Source of the DNA: a virus
Lineage: Duplodnaviria; Heunggongvirae; Uroviricota; Caudoviricetes
Virus record (IMG/VR): IMGVR_UViG_2690316166_000016
Length of the DNA stretch: 4,799 nucleotides
Strand: one strand, 5' to 3'
Numbering within the stretch: the stretch's first letter is position 1; each line of letters begins with the position of its first letter. Both the position numbers and the translations under genes were made by a program. Below are positions 27-4,799 of this stretch, one piece after another. The notes beneath the pieces are model-generated. The model had not been told where the DNA came from, ran no database searches, and worked only from the letters and a program-made list of their open reading frames with translations.

Positions 27-950
27 ATGATGGCCAGCCGGATGCGACGGCCACAGGAAAGAAAGGCCGGGCGAAAAAGGAACGAGAAAAAGGCCGCGCA
101 TAAACGCCAGCGTTTTTCTGTGGACTGGAAAACGCTGCATAACGGGCTTATCTGCCCTGACCGGACGTGGCGGCAAATTGTCACGCTGGAAGATGTGGTT
201 AATCACGGCTGGAAACACACCGATATTGATGAAATTCGTGATGAAAACACCGAAGACGAGTTCCGCAATCTCTATATGTGTGAGTTTGTCCGCGAAGGGG
301 AATCGGCATTTAACCTGAATATCCTGATTGGCTGCGGTGTTGACGGATACGACGACTGGAAAGACTGGAAACCCTTTGCCCCCCGCCCGATGGGGAATCG
401 TCCGGTATGGATTGGGTATGACGCAAACGGCAGCAGTGGTAACGGCGACAGCGGCGCTGTGTCCGTGGTGGTTCCTCCGGCTGTTCCTGGTGGTCGTTTC
501 AGAACGGTGGAGACGCGACGCGTTCAGGGGCTGGAATTTGAAGAGCAGGCCAGAGTTATTGAAGAGTTCACGTATCGCTACAACGTGGAACACATCGGCA
601 TTGATGCGACGGGAGGGCACGGGGATGCCGTCTATCAGATAGTGAAACGGTTTTTTCCCGCCGCCATCCCTTACACCTTCACGCTGTCATCAAAACGGTC
701 GCTGGTACTGAAAATGCTGCAAATAATGCGTGCCGGGCGGTGGGAATACGATCGCGCCGAACGCGAGCTGGTTGCGGCCTTTAACGCCGTGCGTAAGGTG
801 AAAACACCGGGCGGTTTTATCACTTACGAAACGGACCGCGCGAGGGGGATCAGCCACGGCGACCTTGCGTGGGCAACCATGCTTGCTGTCATTAACGAAC
901 CGATTGGCGGCGAAGGAGAAAACGAGCGTTTCACGGTTATGGAGTTCTGA
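27..950 (+). CDS. Phage terminase large subunit, C-terminal nuclease-domain portion (P2 gpP-like); the ATPase part is not in this ORF
   Basis: 307-aa ORF with RNase-H-like terminase nuclease signatures (VWIGYDANGSSGNGDSGAVSVV; EHIGIDATGGHGDAV; ISHGDLAWA) and no Walker A motif. Stop overlaps the next start in TGATG at 948-952. An in-frame TGA at 3-5 means the frame cannot extend upstream; a different frame is open from position 2 to a TAA at 107-109. Family assignment is from memory, not searched. Confidence 0.65.
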   Translation: MMASRMRRPQERKAGRKRNEKKAAHKRQRFSVDWKTLHNGLICPDRTWRQIVTLEDVVNHGWKHTDIDEIRDENTEDEFRNLYMCEFVREGESAFNLNILIGCGVDGYDDWKDWKPFAPRPMGNRPVWIGYDANGSSGNGDSGAVSVVVPPAVPGGRFRTVETRRVQGLEFEEQARVIEEFTYRYNVEHIGIDATGGHGDAVYQIVKRFFPAAIPYTFTLSSKRSLVLKMLQIMRAGRWEYDRAERELVAAFNAVRKVKTPGGFITYETDRARGISHGDLAWATMLAVINEPIGGEGENERFTVMEF

Positions 951-1757
951 TGAGCAGAAAAAATAAAAAAGTGCGCATGAGTTCACGCATTGATCTCGCT
1001 GATGCGCTCAGGAAAGAATCGTCGCTCAGTGCATTCACATTTGATGGTCCTTACCGCCTGACCGGGCATGACCTGCTGGACAATATGTACTGTGCTGATA
1101 ACGGGCGGTGGTATGAAACCCCGGTGGACTGGTACGGTCTGGCAAGAGCTGCCCGGCAAACGTCCTGGCATCAGTCTGCGCTTTACTTTAAGCGCAATGT
1201 ATTGCTCGGCTGCTATATTCCGCACCCGCTGCTTTCCCGGCAGGATTTCTCGGCGCTGGCGCTGGACTGGTTTGTGTTCGGTAACGCATTCCTTGAGCTT
1301 CGGAGCAATATGCTCGGCGAACCGCTTAAATTACGGCACGCCCTGGCGAAATACATGCGACGCGGAAGCGATCTTGAATCATGGTGGTATGTGCAGGATG
1401 GCAAGGATGCGTTTCAGTTTCGTCCTGGCAAAGTGTGCCACCTGATGAATCCGGATATTAACCAGGAAATCTACGGCATGCCGGAATATCTTGGCGCATT
1501 ACTCTCGGCCAGCCTTTCTCATTCGGCGGACATGTTCAGAAAACTGTACTACGACAACGGATCCCACGCCGGGTGCATCATCTACATCGGTGCAGCGCAG
1601 GTAAACCGCGAAAGCATGGACTCCCTGAAAGAAACGCTACAGGGGGCACGTGGTGGTGGTGCGTTTAAAAACGTGCTCATTCATGCGCCCAACGGGGGCA
1701 AAGAGGGGGTGCAAATTTTGCCGTTCCAGCAGATCACCGCAAAGGATGAGTTCATGA
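950..1757 (+). CDS. Phage portal protein (P2 gpQ-like), 5' portion; 3' end hidden in the N-run
   Basis: ATG at 950 preceded by GGAG (941-944); translationally coupled to the terminase stop (TGATG). 269 aa are resolved before the masked region. Terminase-then-portal with a 1-nt overlap is the order I recall for P2 genes P and Q. The frame stays open through the 381 N (a multiple of 3) to a TAA at 2219-2221, but the true stop is probably inside the mask. Confidence 0.6.
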
Positions 1758-2138
1758 NNNNNNNNNNNNNNNNNNNNNNNNNNNNNNNNNNNNNNNNNNN
1801 NNNNNNNNNNNNNNNNNNNNNNNNNNNNNNNNNNNNNNNNNNNNNNNNNNNNNNNNNNNNNNNNNNNNNNNNNNNNNNNNNNNNNNNNNNNNNNNNNNNN
1901 NNNNNNNNNNNNNNNNNNNNNNNNNNNNNNNNNNNNNNNNNNNNNNNNNNNNNNNNNNNNNNNNNNNNNNNNNNNNNNNNNNNNNNNNNNNNNNNNNNNN
2001 NNNNNNNNNNNNNNNNNNNNNNNNNNNNNNNNNNNNNNNNNNNNNNNNNNNNNNNNNNNNNNNNNNNNNNNNNNNNNNNNNNNNNNNNNNNNNNNNNNNN
2101 NNNNNNNNNNNNNNNNNNNNNNNNNNNNNNNNNNNNNN
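1758..2138. other. Masked/unresolved sequence (381 N)
   Basis: Run of n characters; length is a multiple of 3. Hides the portal 3' end and the region immediately downstream. Confidence 0.99.
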
Positions 2139-2167
2139 TGACGCGCTTCGCTTGTCTGCTGCTTCGC

Positions 2168-2192
2168 CGGGGCATAAAAAATTTATGCCCCG
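2168..2192. repeat. Perfect inverted repeat CGGGGCATAAA-aaa-TTTATGCCCCG (11-bp arms, 3-nt spacer)
   Basis: Read directly: arms 2168-2178 and 2182-2192 are exact reverse complements. No T-run follows on either strand, so it is not a canonical intrinsic terminator; it may be a protein-binding site or structural element. Confidence 0.8.
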
Positions 2193-2468
2193 ACTCTCCA
2201 GCTCCTGTATCAGTCAGATAATTTCACGACGCTTTCCTGCTGATTGCCATCATCGACAGTCAGACTCTTACGCAATCCCACCTCGTTGACTGCATATTCT
2301 CGCCGTCTCAGTGCGATTTTGACGGCCTTACCTTTCACCCCATCAAATCAAAAGCCCTCACGTCTTTTTCACGCTCAGCGTGAGAAATACAGCCATTCTG
2401 TTGTATCTCTGCGACATCGTTCAGGGAATGCTATTTACCCCCTGAAACGCGGGCTGTTCCCCCGTCAC

Positions 2469-2522
2469 CTGCGCGCAGAAAAAACGCGTTTTTTTGTGCA
2501 TGCACGGATCCTTGACGGATCC
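2469..2522. promoter_or_regulatory. Cluster of palindromes and short direct repeats between convergent transcription units
   Basis: CTGCGCGCAG (2469-2478); AAAAAACGCGTTTTTT (2479-2494); GTGCATGCAC (2496-2505); ACGGATCC twice (2504-2511, 2515-2522) with a TTGACG between them. Function not determinable; stems are too weak or AU-only for a confident terminator call. Confidence 0.35.
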
Positions 2523-2565
2523 AGCCGCCACGCGGGCCGGAAGGGCAAAAAGTCGTTCAAAAAAA

Positions 2566-2592
2566 TTGTGCAAATTTGTGCACTATTGTGCA
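2566..2592 (+). repeat. Three tandem direct repeats of TTGTGCA at 10-bp phasing
   Basis: TTGTGCA at 2566-2572, 2576-2582 and 2586-2592, with a fourth copy at 2494-2500 inside the GTGCATGCAC palindrome; followed by TATAAA (2595-2600). Helical-turn spacing suggests a protein-binding array (operator-like). Confidence 0.6.
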
Positions 2593-2632
2593 TTTATAAA
2601 ATCAACTAAAAAACACCTAGTGTGACTTACCT

Positions 2633-2818
2633 CTACCACTCGATCGGCACGTAGTCATTAAGTTCCGGAGACCAATTGCACTTTTCACATCTGTGTTTTC
2701 CATTCTGGCAGATACATAAACGATAACGGCCACAATGCGGGCACCCATTTTCACCATTATCATAATCACCGAGCGACCATTCCTGCATAAGCAGCTCTTC
2801 TTCATCATCATTTAGCAT
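2633..2818 (-). CDS. Small Cys-rich protein (61 aa), zinc-ribbon-like, acidic N-terminus; function unknown
   Basis: ATG at 2818 preceded by AAGGGGGA; TAG stop at 2633-2635. Six Cys arranged C-x2-C-x5-C-x1-C-x6-C-x2-C (GCPHCGRYRLCICQNGKHRCEKC). Third gene of a co-oriented operon. Confidence 0.6.
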   Translation of the reverse strand: MLNDDEEELLMQEWSLGDYDNGENGCPHCGRYRLCICQNGKHRCEKCNWSPELNDYVPIEW

Positions 2819-2832
2819 TAATCCCCCTTGAG

Positions 2833-3072
2833 CTATTTACTCTTCTCGGCCCTCAAAATCATACGAGAACCATCATCCAGCTCCCAATTAATTTCACCGC
2901 CTTCTGCCATGACTAGATGCCAAACGAGTTGAGCGGCCTCGTTGGTTACATCGCGACCGCGATCATTTCCTACGCGGCGTTTTGTTCCGTCTCCTAAGTC
3001 ACGCATTTTTGCCAATACGATGGTTTTTGATAGCGGTGAAAAACCAAGCTGTAGTCGTGCTGAATTACTCAC
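2833..3072 (-). CDS. Hypothetical protein (79 aa), function unknown
   Basis: GTG start at 3072 preceded by AAGGGGG with a 6-nt spacer. The start overlaps the stop of the upstream gene as GTGA. An alternative internal ATG would give a shorter product. No recognised family. Confidence 0.55.
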   Translation of the reverse strand: MSNSARLQLGFSPLSKTIVLAKMRDLGDGTKRRVGNDRGRDVTNEAAQLVWHLVMAEGGEINWELDDGSRMILRAEKSK

Positions 3073-3593
3073 TGGCTGCCCCCTTTGTACTGTGTTAACT
3101 CTTCCTGCTCCTGCATCATGCGATTGACCTGAACGCGTGTGCGTCGAACGGCAAAATTAAATTGAAACATGAGCCGGAACATTTCTGATGCTTCCGTGTG
3201 AGCATCACGGATAGGTGACAGGCGGTACAGTTCTGCCTCCGTAGCTTGTTGAATCAATGACAGATCAAATTGAAGTGCGGGTCTGGTACATTTTGCACAT
3301 CTGGCAGCAAGCTCCGGTATTAGTCTCTTAACGAAGGTGTTTTGCACCGCTTTGTTGATTTGTGTCTGCATCCAAATCGCAAATTTCAGCGAACGCATAA
3401 GTTTGATAGCCTCGGGCAGCGGCAGATAGATCATGCTGGTAGATTTGGGTGGTTGGTGAACCATCTTCACGGATACGCGATTTCGCAGCGTTCGGAAAAT
3501 CGTGTTCCCAACAACAGCTTCTACGGATACAGGACAGGGAGCCAGACCAGCCCGCAGTGCTTCTTTCATTAGCATGTATTCGTATTTTTTCAT
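3069..3593 (-). CDS. Hypothetical protein (174 aa), contains one CxxC (CAKC); function unknown
   Basis: ATG at 3593 preceded by GAGGAA with a 6-nt spacer; TGA stop overlapping the downstream GTG start. Basic, no recognised motifs. First gene of the operon. Confidence 0.65.
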   Translation of the reverse strand: MKKYEYMLMKEALRAGLAPCPVSVEAVVGNTIFRTLRNRVSVKMVHQPPKSTSMIYLPLPEAIKLMRSLKFAIWMQTQINKAVQNTFVKRLIPELAARCAKCTRPALQFDLSLIQQATEAELYRLSPIRDAHTEASEMFRLMFQFNFAVRRTRVQVNRMMQEQEELTQYKGGSQ

Positions 3594-3716
3594 CGTGTTT
3601 TCCTCGTGCGGGGCGACAGTGCACCCCGATAAAATTAAAAGCCGTCAAATTCGTCATTCAGGAAATAATGCCCGGATATTCCCTGCTATCTGACTGGTTA
3701 TCTGTGCGGTTGGTAC
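3594..3716 (-). promoter_or_regulatory. 5' leader / possible promoter region of the three-gene operon (also the parR 3' flank)
   Basis: 104-nt spacer between the parR stop and the gene start at 3593. Contains a TTGACG -35-like hexamer (minus strand, plus coordinates 3643-3648) but no convincing -10 at proper spacing. The operon may instead be read through from parMR. Confidence 0.25.
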
Positions 3717-3985
3717 NNNNNNNNNNNNNNNNNNNNNNNNNNNNNNNNNNNNNNNNNNNNNNCTGTCCTGGTTTGTGTCACCGATAACGCCTCATCGTCA
3801 GCCCATGCAGCCAGTCGGTAAGCCTCTGCTGGATTCATTTTCAGAAGTGCCAGCCCGGCCAGAAAAGCCACGCGTTGGCCGCTTTTGCGGGCTTCTGGTG
3901 TAAGGCTGCCCAGCCNNNNNNNNNNNTCGTTCTTGACGGCCGCAGGCTTCAGATAGAAACTTATCCGTCTGGTTGGTGTCGTCAT
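3698..3985 (-). CDS. parR: ParR-like centromere-binding partition protein (type II partition), about 95 aa, partly masked
   Basis: ATG at 3985 preceded by AAGGAG with a 7-nt spacer. N-terminal region (TRRISFYLKPAAVKN ... LGSLTPEARKSGQRVAFLAGLALLKMNP) matches my recollection of the ribbon-helix-helix N-terminus of plasmid R1 ParR. Lies immediately downstream of parM on the same strand. The C-terminus runs through a 46-N mask, so the stop at 3698 is provisional. Confidence 0.6.
   Translation of the reverse strand: MTTPTRRISFYLKPAAVKNXXXXXLGSLTPEARKSGQRVAFLAGLALLKMNPAEAYRLAAWADDEALSVTQTRTXXXXXXXXXXXXXXXXYQPHR
3717..3762. other. Masked/unresolved sequence (46 N)
   Basis: Run of n characters inside the parR 3' region. 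Confidence 0.99.
3916..3926. other. Masked/unresolved sequence (11 N)
   Basis: Run of n characters inside parR; ParR-like sequence continues in the same frame on both sides, so the mask appears to preserve length. Confidence 0.99.
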
Positions 3986-4076
3986 TGGTTTACTCCTTGT
4001 CCATTGCGTACAGCCCATTAACCAGAGCAAACTGTGGCACCCGCTATCCGCGAAGCCTGCGGAGTTAATGCGACTT

Positions 4077-4799
4077 TCATCGCGGACGGGGTGCCACAAT
4101 CTCCGCCCCTCCACCGACAACCATCACCCGCCCGTAACCCGAAAAACCCGCCAGCGCGCGGATCACGCGTTGTTTCAGTGTTTCTTCCTTTTCACGAATA
4201 ACCGCCATCAGGCTGGCGTAATGCGCGTCATTGTGGATGTGCTGGCGCAGCCAGGCTTCATCATGGCGATGTTCGATAATGGTATTGGCGATGTGGTGAC
4301 TGGTGCGCATACCGTTAGTGGCCATCACCGACAGTACGGCATCGGCCATCAGAGAAACGCCTACGTGTGGATCGCAAAACACCTGGCTGATACCTGCCAG
4401 TTGCCCCTGAACCTTTGCCACATCCAGCGTGGTTCCGCCCAAATCCACAATCAGCAGGGATTCAAACGGACTCATGTCAGCCAGTGCCTTAAAGCCAGCC
4501 GGAATGGATTCAGGCATAACCCGCACGTTACGGATAGTGAATGCTTCGCCGTTCTGGTACTCCACCGGGCGCATAACGTTCGCTTTTTTGCGGTTGATGT
4601 TGGCCATGTCCGGCTGTGCGTTTGTGTCGAAATACTCGCTCAGTGGCAGGGTGACAACCACATCCACCTCCTGTGGCGTGATGCCTGATTTGACCAGCGC
4701 GTGATGAATGGCAATGACATTTACATCGCTGTACTGGTATTGCGTGTCGGTTGTCTGGACAAAGCGATCGCTGACCGGATCAAAACCATAGCGCACGCC
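4077..4799 (-). CDS. parM: ParM/StbA actin-like plasmid partition ATPase; N-terminus lies beyond the window end, 3' end apparently truncated or frameshifted
   Basis: Frame open to the window edge. Actin-fold motifs present: LIVDLGGTTLDV (phosphate-2), VMPESIPAG, VMVVGGGAE (adenosine motif). Extensive similarity to R1 ParM as I recall it (YSDVNVIAIHHAL, EVDVVVTLPL). The ORF stops only 7 codons after GGGAE. Confidence 0.8.
   Translation of the reverse strand, partial: GVRYGFDPVSDRFVQTTDTQYQYSDVNVIAIHHALVKSGITPQEVDVVVTLPLSEYFDTNAQPDMANINRKKANVMRPVEYQNGEAFTIRNVRVMPESIPAGFKALADMSPFESLLIVDLGGTTLDVAKVQGQLAGISQVFCDPHVGVSLMADAVLSVMATNGMRTSHHIANTIIEHRHDEAWLRQHIHNDAHYASLMAVIREKEETLKQRVIRALAGFSGYGRVMVVGGGAEIVAPRPR

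What the first reader, a model, noticed from the sequence alone, without database searches (positions are those of the whole stretch)
2633..2818. 61-aa six-cysteine zinc-ribbon-like protein with an acidic N-terminus as terminal gene of the operon
The sequence MLNDDEEELLMQEWSLGDYDNGENGCPHCGRYRLCICQNGKHRCEKCNWSPELNDYVPIEW has six Cys spaced C-x2-C-x5-C-x1-C-x6-C-x2-C behind a DDEEE-rich leader. The spacing does not match the DksA/TraR, Ogr or Com patterns as I remember them. Small zinc-ribbon proteins in such operons are often regulators, sensors or inhibitors acting by protein or nucleic-acid binding.
Basis: partly seen in the sequence, partly recalled or inferred. Interest (0 to 1): 0.5.

Follow-up and report, generated by a model that had tools for sequence, protein, structure and literature searches.

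The report
Orphan phage zinc-ribbon mini-protein beside cos
The 61-residue open reading frame is a real, strongly conserved small zinc-ribbon gene that phages carry as a free-standing accessory gene, here in the variable region next to the DNA-packaging site of a P2-like prophage; its function is unknown and it is not tied to the two genes upstream.

Summary
The ORF at 2633-2818 (minus strand) is as described and is a real gene. It has a strong ribosome-binding site and dN/dS of 0.04-0.11. It has 184 relatives at the 50% cluster level and 375 at the 90% level, and it matches PHROG 24897 (function unknown) over its full length.

Only four cysteines (C26, C29, C44, C47) are invariant across the wider family, together with R33. 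C35 and C37 are traits of the close subfamily. The fold is a classic C-x2-C-x14-C-x2-C zinc ribbon: a basic core flanked by acidic tails. It has no significant match to any characterised protein or curated family.

The window is a P88-like (P2-family) prophage. The gene lies in the gpA-gpQ hotspot next to cos. In 28 P2-like loci the gene stays next to cos and the portal gene, while the genes upstream of it differ in at least eight ways. In other phages it often sits just before the terminase genes.

So the link to this operon is incidental. The same backbone usually carries an Ea22-like gene in its place, and only 1 of 5,426 complete E. coli genomes has this gene.

The mechanism is inferred only. 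I favour a stand-alone binding module that acts on a highly conserved target.

The parts
2633..2818 (-). CDS of the 61-aa zinc-ribbon mini-protein (called ZnR here). Predicted helix at residues 4-13 and ribbon at residues 26-47. Zinc ligands inferred as C26, C29, C44 and C47.
   Evidence: ORF. PHROG 24897, E=2.6e-46. Family alignments. dN/dS 0.04-0.11. AlphaFold2 pLDDT 87.8.
2821..2830 (-). Shine-Dalgarno sequence (CAAGGGGGAT on the minus strand; its AAGGGGGA core ends 4 nt before the ATG)
   Evidence: Read directly from the sequence. Conserved in the Salmonella P2-like loci L008 and L012.
2558..2583 (-). Terminator-like hairpin GTGCACAAATTTGCAC followed by AATTTTTTTG, 50 nt after the stop codon. 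Probably ends the long rightward transcript before cos.
   Evidence: Consensus scan. The same element lies downstream of the gene in L008 and L012. It is a pattern match only.
2439..2848 (.). Block shared with divergent Salmonella P2-like prophages. The gene is 91-95% identical and the cos-proximal spacer 80-83%, against 72% in the portal and terminase genes. Homology stops about 30 nt upstream of the ATG.
   Evidence: blastn of the window against the loci.
2833..3072 (-). Upstream neighbour: 79-aa DUF7446 protein. Context only, not a conserved partner.
   Evidence: Pfam PF24233, E=9.7e-17. It is found next to many other genes in lambdoid and P1-like elements. It is adjacent to ZnR only in 5 near-identical loci.
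3069..3593 (-). 174-aa orphan protein. Context only, not a conserved partner.
   Evidence: No Pfam, PHROG, PADLOC, NCBIfam or PDB hit. Only 8 enterobacterial clusters. Usually followed by an Ea22-like gene.
3698..4796 (-). StbB-like and ParM partition genes of the P2-hotspot cargo (context)
   Evidence: Pfam Plasmid_stab_B, ParM_N and StbA_N. Annotation of L001 and L002. Rousset 2022 reports that about a quarter of P2-like phages carry a partition system here.
27..2141 (+). Terminase gpP (3' part) and portal gpQ, convergent with ZnR across the cos region. These form the conserved flank of the hotspot.
   Evidence: Pfam and PHROG hits. Annotation of L001 and L002.

Best explanation
This is a genuine, free-standing phage accessory gene. 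It encodes a 61-aa zinc-ribbon mini-protein of an uncharacterised family that is catalogued only as PHROG 24897.

Shown:
- The gene is under strong purifying selection.
- The family-invariant residues are C26, C29, R33, C44 and C47, with R31, E45 and K46 nearly invariant. They form a classic C-x2-C-x14-C-x2-C ribbon. The two extra cysteines belong to the close subfamily only.
- The ribbon core is basic (median +3) and is flanked by acidic N- and C-terminal tails.
- The gene moves independently of its neighbours. In P2-like prophages it stays in the gpA-gpQ hotspot directly beside cos. In other phages it is often the gene just before the packaging module.

Inferred: the protein binds one zinc ion through the four invariant cysteines. 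It works alone, without catalysis, as a binding module. It would be made from the long rightward transcript that runs through the replication and partition genes. It would use the conserved Arg/Lys face of the ribbon and its acidic tails to bind and modulate a target that is itself highly conserved across bacteria. A nucleic-acid-handling host protein or a nucleic acid fits best, which would make it a host-takeover or counter-defence factor rather than a partner of the two upstream proteins.
For: - Real gene: PHROG 24897 E=2.6e-46. 184 clusters at 50% and 375 at 90% identity. dN/dS 0.04-0.11.
- Four-cysteine ribbon: invariant columns. The Lactococcus phage homologue lacks C35 and C37. The AlphaFold2 model has pLDDT 87.8, with a helix and a three-stranded ribbon. 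The best structural neighbours are eL43, TFIIS and RPB9 ribbons, all non-significant.
- Charge pattern: the core is positive in 93% of members, the C-terminal tail negative in 90%, and net charge negative in 85%.
- Independence from neighbours: at least eight different upstream contexts in 28 P2-like loci. No neighbour family is shared across lineages. No flanking DNA motif is shared by 35 non-redundant lineages.
- Position next to cos: the portal gene is convergent 0.2-1.4 kb away in 27 of the 28 P2-like loci. In an Erwinia prophage the gene lies on the other side of the cos homologue. The locus is the published P2 hotspot (PMC9122126).
- Conserved target: ZnR is 66-84% identical where the portal protein is only 42-51% identical, with synonymous sites saturated.
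- Accessory status: present in 1 of 5,426 complete E. coli genomes, in no plasmid record, and in no deposited enterobacterial phage.
Against: - There is no experimental or homology-based link to any target.
- There is no hit to PADLOC defence models. No anti-defence library was available to test against.
- Counter-defence proteins usually evolve fast and have narrow host ranges, unlike this family.
- A net charge of -8 argues against simple DNA binding, while the basic ribbon face argues against a pure DNA mimic.
- Zinc binding, expression and timing have not been measured.
- Promoter assignment is weak. No consistent promoter of its own was found.
Confidence: 0.45

Rival explanations
1. It is a sequence- or structure-specific nucleic-acid-binding regulator. 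It would work like Ogr/Delta or Mu Com without being related to them: the ribbon binds a defined DNA or RNA site and switches phage gene expression.
Against: All of those matches fall below the family cut-offs and are generic to zinc ribbons. The protein is strongly acidic overall. No conserved flanking motif travels with the gene in 35 lineages. It is absent from most members of each phage lineage, so it cannot be a core regulator.
Confidence: 0.2
2. It is an accessory factor for packaging or for the genome ends. It would act at cos, on the terminase, or on freshly injected DNA ends, for example by protecting ends or modulating cos cleavage.
For: The gene abuts cos in 28 P2-like loci that span 42-100% portal identity, and it occurs on either side of cos. 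In other phages it lies directly upstream of terS/terL (L005, L048-50, L059) or of an HNH gene followed by a weak terminase-like ORF (L036). The gene and the cos-proximal spacer are shared as one block between divergent P2-like phages.
Against: Most P2-like phages with the same cos region lack the gene, so it is dispensable for packaging. The terminases next to it belong to different families. In many lineages it lies beside helicase, exonuclease, integrase, methyltransferase or kinase genes instead. The cos-proximal region is a known insertion hotspot, which explains the position without any function.
Confidence: 0.12
3. It is one component of a three-gene module (174 aa, DUF7446, ZnR), such as a defence system or a toxin-antitoxin system. 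This is what the operon reading implies.
For: The genes are tightly coupled in the window: a 4-nt overlap and a 14-nt gap. The locus is a defence hotspot where a three-gene system without recognisable domains has been validated.
Against: The trio exists only in near-identical copies (L016-L019). Each gene occurs without the others. There are no PADLOC hits. The family sizes differ greatly: 8 clusters against 375.
Confidence: 0.05
4. It is a small zinc-ribbon toxin of the RalR/Lar type: a DNase or restriction-alleviation protein held in check by an antisense RNA.
For: It is similar in size to RalR and also prophage-borne. Four of 91 family members touch Pfam Lar_restr_allev below threshold (best E=9e-4).
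Against: hhalign of the family profile against E. coli RalR gives 9% probability. No antisense RNA gene or promoter is evident. No significant sequence similarity beyond the CPxCG knuckle: 22% identity over the 36 aligned columns.
Confidence: 0.05

Closest known systems
Classic zinc-ribbon domains (TFIIS C-terminal domain, RPB9, TFIIB N-terminal ribbon, ribosomal eL43/L37ae)
   Same: Two CxxC knuckles about 14 residues apart on a three-stranded sheet. These are the best, though weak, sequence and structure neighbours.
PHROG 24897 (phage orthologous group, function unknown)
   Same: Full-length match, E=2.6e-46. This is the same family.
   Different: The PHROG carries no annotation. This work adds the family's breadth, its invariant residues and its genomic behaviour.
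P2 Ogr / P4 Delta late activators, Mu Com, and DksA/TraR
   Same: All are small zinc-binding phage or plasmid proteins of 60-75 aa. TraR also has an acidic N-terminal helix.
   Different: The cysteine spacing differs (Ogr C-x2-C-x22-C-x4-C and TraR C-x2-C-x17-C-x2-C, both quoted from memory). No Pfam hit to these families at E up to 1. The predicted helix is only about 10 residues, too short for a TraR-like probe of the RNA-polymerase secondary channel.
RalR/Lar of the Rac prophage (PF14354)
   Same: A 64-aa prophage protein with a CPxCG knuckle. A few family members touch the Pfam model below threshold.
   Different: The profile comparison gives 9% probability. This is not the same family.
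Cargo of the P2 gpA-gpQ hotspot (old, tin, retrons, partition systems and others; Rousset et al. 2022)
   Same: Same locus and same patchy, mosaic behaviour.
   Different: Known cargo consists mostly of larger defence systems. This 61-aa gene keeps the cos-adjacent slot while the cargo upstream of it changes. It also occurs in unrelated phage types.

Membership tests
PHROG 24897 | Full-length match to the family profile | tested here: met
   E=2.6e-46, residues 1-60 on profile positions 1-60 of 60
Classic zinc-ribbon fold | Two CxxC zinc knuckles on beta-hairpins that form a three-stranded sheet | tested here: met
   C26-x2-C29 and C44-x2-C47 are invariant in 91 sequences. AlphaFold2 places strands at 34-36 and 42-44 plus short bridges, pLDDT 87.8. 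Nearest folds are the eL43, TFIIS and RPB9 ribbons. This rests on a predicted structure only.
Classic zinc-ribbon fold | Binds one zinc ion through the four cysteines | not testable with these tools
   Needs metal analysis of purified protein.
DksA/TraR C4 zinc finger (PF01258) | Match to the Pfam model; C-x2-C-x17-C-x2-C after a long coiled coil with an acidic tip | tested here: not met
   No hit at E up to 1. Not among the families hit by the 91 members. The knuckle spacing is 14 and the helix about 10 residues.
Ogr/Delta late activators (PF04606) | Match to the Pfam model; C-x2-C-x22-C-x4-C | tested here: not met
   No hit. The spacing differs.
Mu Com translational activator | Match to the Pfam model; a target gene with an RNA binding site immediately downstream | tested here: not met
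   No hit. No downstream gene lies before cos. No conserved flanking motif.
Lar/RalR (PF14354) | Match to the family model or to E. coli RalR | tested here: not met
   4 of 91 members below threshold. hhalign probability 9%.
IS1595 transposase zinc ribbon (PF12760) | Score above the Pfam gathering threshold | tested here: not met
   17.1 bits against a cut-off of 25.4.
Known anti-phage defence systems (PADLOC-DB 2.0) | Any of the three operon proteins matches a defence-system model | tested here: not met
   0 families for all three at E up to 1.
Cargo of the P2 gpA-gpQ cos-proximal hotspot | Located between replication gene A and portal gene Q of a P2-like phage, with variable gene content | tested here: met
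   gpA ... ParM-StbB-174aa-DUF7446-ZnR | cos | gpQ in L016-L019 and L002. Alternative cargo in relatives. Hotspot definition from PMC9122126.
Three-gene functional module with the 174-aa and DUF7446 proteins | The three genes co-occur across lineages | tested here: not met
   They co-occur only in near-identical loci.

The most novel reading that the evidence does not exclude
The family may be a previously unrecognised class of broadly distributed phage mini-proteins that act on a universally conserved bacterial target, such as RNA polymerase, SSB or the replisome, RecBCD-type end-processing enzymes, or the ribosome. Alternatively they may act on the phage genome ends themselves. Either reading would explain two observations: a 61-aa accessory protein is better conserved than the portal protein across Gamma- and Betaproteobacterial P2-like phages, and it keeps the slot directly beside cos, on either side of it, or just before the terminase genes.
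Probability: 0.2. Interest if true: 0.6.

Novelty: new member of a known kind. Interest (0 to 1): 0.3.

Why it matters
If the inferred role is right, this would be a compact, zinc-stabilised, widely transferable phage effector against a conserved cellular target. Such a protein could serve as a probe or inhibitor. It would also explain one recurrent occupant of the P2 cos-proximal hotspot.

As it stands, the main value is corrective. The gene is real but is missed by RefSeq annotation in the one complete E. coli genome that carries it. The zinc site needs four cysteines, not six. The apparent three-gene operon is a mosaic of independent cassettes, so interaction experiments should not be limited to the two upstream proteins.

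Tried and rejected
- Curated-family assignment. Pfam, NCBIfam, PADLOC and PDB sequence searches gave nothing above threshold.
- Lar/RalR and YdaE of the Rac prophage as relatives. hhalign probabilities were 9% and 0.3%.
- Degenerate HNH nuclease. Rejected from the sequence: the 14-residue gap between the knuckles is too short, there is no conserved catalytic His after the first knuckle, and the predicted core is all-beta.
- Homology between the Ea22-like protein that replaces the cassette in relatives and DUF7446. None found.
- A conserved partner gene. Neighbour clustering over 60+ loci found none beyond close relatives.
- A co-travelling cis element. No k-mer enrichment in the flanks of 35 lineages.
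- LexA box or own promoter upstream in loci with an intergenic gap. No LexA box (CTGT-N8-ACAG) was seen on reading the upstream gap of L008, and no consistent promoter was predicted.
- Literature. No paper mentions DUF7446, and searches for a characterised small zinc-ribbon protein at the P2 hotspot found nothing relevant.
- Fused-domain clues. SLOG/YspA, XRE helix-turn-helix and coiled-coil N-terminal extensions are too heterogeneous to assign a function, and some may be gene-calling artefacts.

Full report
**Observation.** The window's minus strand carries an ATG-initiated ORF at 2633-2818 whose translation is exactly the 61-aa sequence quoted. The cysteines are C26, C29, C35, C37, C44 and C47, so the stated spacing is correct. 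The first 13 residues have a net charge of -6, and the whole protein is -8 with pI 4.4. A strong Shine-Dalgarno sequence (AAGGGGGA) ends 4 nt before the ATG. The gene follows the 79-aa gene at 2833-3072 after 14 nt, and that gene overlaps the 174-aa gene at 3069-3593 by 4 nt. Upstream lie StbB-like and ParM genes on the same strand. A terminator-like hairpin with a T-run lies 50 nt downstream. The description as the terminal gene of a co-directional string holds for this window.

**It is a real gene.**
- It matches PHROG 24897 (function unknown) end to end, with E=2.6e-46.
- A word-indexed search found 36 close clusters.
- An exhaustive profile search found 184 clusters at 50% identity with E of 1e-3 or better.
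- A second profile search found 375 clusters at 90% identity.
- Against relatives whose synonymous sites are not saturated, dN/dS is 0.04-0.11. Against distant ones, dS is saturated while dN stays at 0.09-0.31.
- RefSeq's pipeline left the 100%-identical copy in E. coli FDAARGOS_943 unannotated.

**What the protein is.** Among close relatives all six cysteines look conserved. In a 91-sequence alignment of diverse members, the invariant columns are C26, C29, R33, C44 and C47. R31, E45 and K46 are at 90% or more, and G30, N39, G40, K41, W14, Y19, W49 and Y56 are strongly preferred. C35 survives in only 26 of 91 sequences and C37 in 61 of 91. A Lactococcus phage homologue that is 50% identical over residues 26-61 has neither. 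The family core is therefore a four-cysteine C-x2-C-x14-C-x2-C zinc ribbon, and the six-cysteine pattern is a trait of the close subfamily.

AlphaFold2 with the family alignment gives a confident model (pLDDT 87.8). It has an N-terminal helix at residues 4-13, a three-stranded ribbon, and a C-terminal extension that packs back on the ribbon. Structure searches return only generic ribbons below significance:
- eL43/L37ae at Foldseek E about 0.5.
- The uncharacterised Lactococcus phage homologue in BFVD.

No Pfam, NCBIfam, PADLOC or PDB sequence match passes threshold. The sub-threshold matches are the usual cross-hits between zinc ribbons: TFIIB, Cys_rich_CPCC, IS91 and IS1595 transposases, L37ae and Lar. 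Profile comparison with E. coli RalR/Lar and YdaE is negative.

Across the family, the ribbon core is basic (median +3, positive in 93% of members). The N- and C-terminal tails are acidic, and 85% of members are net negative.

**Where it sits.** The window is a P88-like (Xuanwuvirus, P2-family) prophage, 100% identical over the non-masked parts of 79-3716 to the prophage-derived IMG/VR contig L016, and over 2139-3716 also to L017 and L019. Terminase gpP and portal gpQ lie on the plus strand. Next comes the cos-proximal spacer. Then, convergent with the portal gene, comes the end of the long rightward gene string: gpA, ParM, StbB, 174 aa, DUF7446, ZnR. This gpA-gpQ interval is the published P2 hotspot: 1,650 gene arrangements, about a quarter of them with a partition system, adjacent to cos (PMC9122126).

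**The operon relationship is incidental.**
- In the nearest relatives with the same ParM-StbB-174aa backbone, the slot of DUF7446 plus ZnR is taken by an unrelated ead/Ea22-like gene. This holds in a Salmonella IncHI2 plasmid insert and in dozens of E. coli chromosomes.
- In E. coli FDAARGOS_943, DUF7446 and ZnR follow a ClpX-type zinc-finger gene and a 75-aa gene instead of the 174-aa gene.
- In Salmonella and other P2-like prophages, ZnR follows a 136-aa gene after a 190-nt gap, or a 532-aa orphan, or a DUF7415 protein plus a methyltransferase-like protein, and so on. There are at least eight different upstream contexts.
- DUF7446 on its own is widespread in lambdoid and P1-like elements next to other genes.
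- The 174-aa protein is a narrow enterobacterial orphan with 8 clusters.
- Neighbour clustering over all loci found no gene family that accompanies ZnR beyond close relatives.
- No flanking k-mer is shared by 35 non-redundant lineages.

**What is conserved is the position.** In 28 P2-like loci whose portal proteins are 42-100% identical to the window's, ZnR is within 0.2-1.4 kb of the portal gene's 3' end. These loci come from Escherichia, Salmonella, Erwinia psidii, the betaproteobacterium Craterilacuibacter and metagenomes. In 27 of the 28 the two genes are convergent across the cos region. In the Erwinia prophage, the homologue of the window's cos-proximal spacer lies upstream of ZnR, so there the gene is on the other side of cos.

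Between the window and the Salmonella P2-likes, the gene is 91-95% identical in DNA. The adjoining spacer is 80-83% identical, and the portal and terminase genes only about 72%. Homology ends 30 nt upstream of the ATG. The cassette has therefore been exchanged between lineages.

In the more distant P2-likes, ZnR is 66-84% identical where the portal protein is only 42-51%. That points to very strong constraint on the small protein.

Outside the P2 family, the gene lies directly upstream of small and large terminase genes in several lineages (L005, L048-50 and L059; in L053 five small ORFs intervene) or upstream of an HNH gene followed by a weak terminase-like ORF (L036). In others it sits among helicase, exonuclease, integrase, methyltransferase or nucleotide-kinase genes.

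The gene is rare. It occurs in 1 of 5,426 complete E. coli genomes, in none of 72,556 plasmid records and in no deposited enterobacterial phage genome.

**Mechanism.** Nothing here measures function, so what follows is inference. The protein is too small and too beta-rich for a known catalytic fold. An HNH reading fails on spacing and on the missing catalytic histidine. It has no conserved partner gene and no conserved cis site. Yet nearly its whole surface is conserved across hosts as distant as Enterobacterales, Xanthomonadales, Neisseriales and (for the ribbon core) Lactococcus phages. That combination fits best a stand-alone binding module aimed at a target that is itself highly conserved, with the Arg/Lys face of the ribbon and the acidic tails as the interaction surface. 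Its accessory, patchy, hotspot-borne distribution fits host takeover or counter-defence better than a core phage function. I give this composite reading 0.45. The identity and independence parts are near certain. The target class is a guess.

The rivals are:
- A site-specific nucleic-acid-binding regulator (0.2).
- A factor associated with cos, the terminase or the DNA ends (0.12). This rival is attractive because of the position but is undermined by dispensability and by the hotspot explanation.
- A true three-gene module (0.05).
- A RalR-like small toxin (0.05).

**Comparison and novelty.** By fold this is a classic zinc ribbon. By family it is an uncharacterised phage group already catalogued without function as PHROG 24897. 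It is not a member of the DksA/TraR, Ogr/Delta, Com, Lar/RalR or IS1595-ribbon families, and it matches no known defence-system model. I rate it a new (uncharacterised) member of a known kind, of modest interest. The points beyond the ordinary are its unusually strong conservation for an accessory mini-protein and its persistent placement directly beside the packaging site.

Noticed in passing
window 78/79: Window bases 1-78 and 79 onward are both 100% identical to relatives such as L016. In L016 (and likewise in L001 and L002) they are separated by 563 nt of the terminase gpP gene that the window lacks. This is either a deletion that shifts the reading frame, which would cripple the prophage, or an assembly or processing artefact.
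   Followed up: partly
window 4033-4098: This 66-nt segment is a 46-nt core flanked by perfect 10-nt inverted repeats, TGTGGCACCC and GGGTGCCACA. It is 100% identical to relatives only in the inverted orientation. It lies in the 3' end of parM, so the ParM C-terminus is altered and the ORF upstream of stbB is lengthened. It could be a hairpin-mediated inversion or an artefact.
   Followed up: partly
window 1758-2138, 3717-3762, 3916-3926: The runs of N do not preserve length. 381 N stand for 236 nt, and 46 N stand for 20 nt, in the identical relative L016. Coordinates across these runs are therefore not collinear with real genomes.
   Followed up: yes
window 2494-2501 and 2566-2593: TTGTGCA(N) occurs three times at exact 10-nt spacing, plus one more copy 72 nt upstream, in the cos-proximal spacer. 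The repeats overlap the terminator-like hairpin. They are shared with P88-like phages that lack the zinc-ribbon gene. They may be binding sites for terminase or a cos-binding protein.
   Followed up: no
L002 8077-8259 (E. coli FDAARGOS_943, NZ_CP065615.1 21547-21752): The only complete E. coli genome with the gene has a 100%-identical copy that RefSeq/PGAP did not annotate.
   Followed up: yes
L062 and L038 5690-6180 (Erwinia psidii prophage): Here the homologue of the cos-proximal spacer lies upstream of the zinc-ribbon gene, and the portal gene starts about 30 nt after its stop. The gene is on the opposite side of cos from the window arrangement.
   Followed up: partly
L018 3960-5747: In this otherwise near-identical prophage the 174-aa gene is split by an insertion of about 1.2 kb, probably an insertion sequence.
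   Followed up: no
L012 3049-4647 (Salmonella P2-like hotspot): A 532-aa cargo protein immediately upstream of the zinc-ribbon gene has no PHROG or PADLOC hit. It is an uncharacterised hotspot gene, and it is disrupted in L020 and L026.
   Followed up: no
proteins P0060, P0209, P0112, P0127: The ribbon also occurs as the C-terminal domain of longer predicted proteins. One has a SLOG/YspA domain (Pfam E=8e-7), one an XRE-type helix-turn-helix domain, and two have coiled coils. Some of these may be gene-calling fusions.
   Followed up: partly
window 2833-3072 and relatives: The DUF7446 gene is 80-92% identical in DNA across P1-like plasmids, lambdoid prophages and a Yersinia phage, usually beside ead/Ea22-like, Eae or DUF2737 genes. 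It is an independently mobile small gene of the 'ea' regions.
   Followed up: partly
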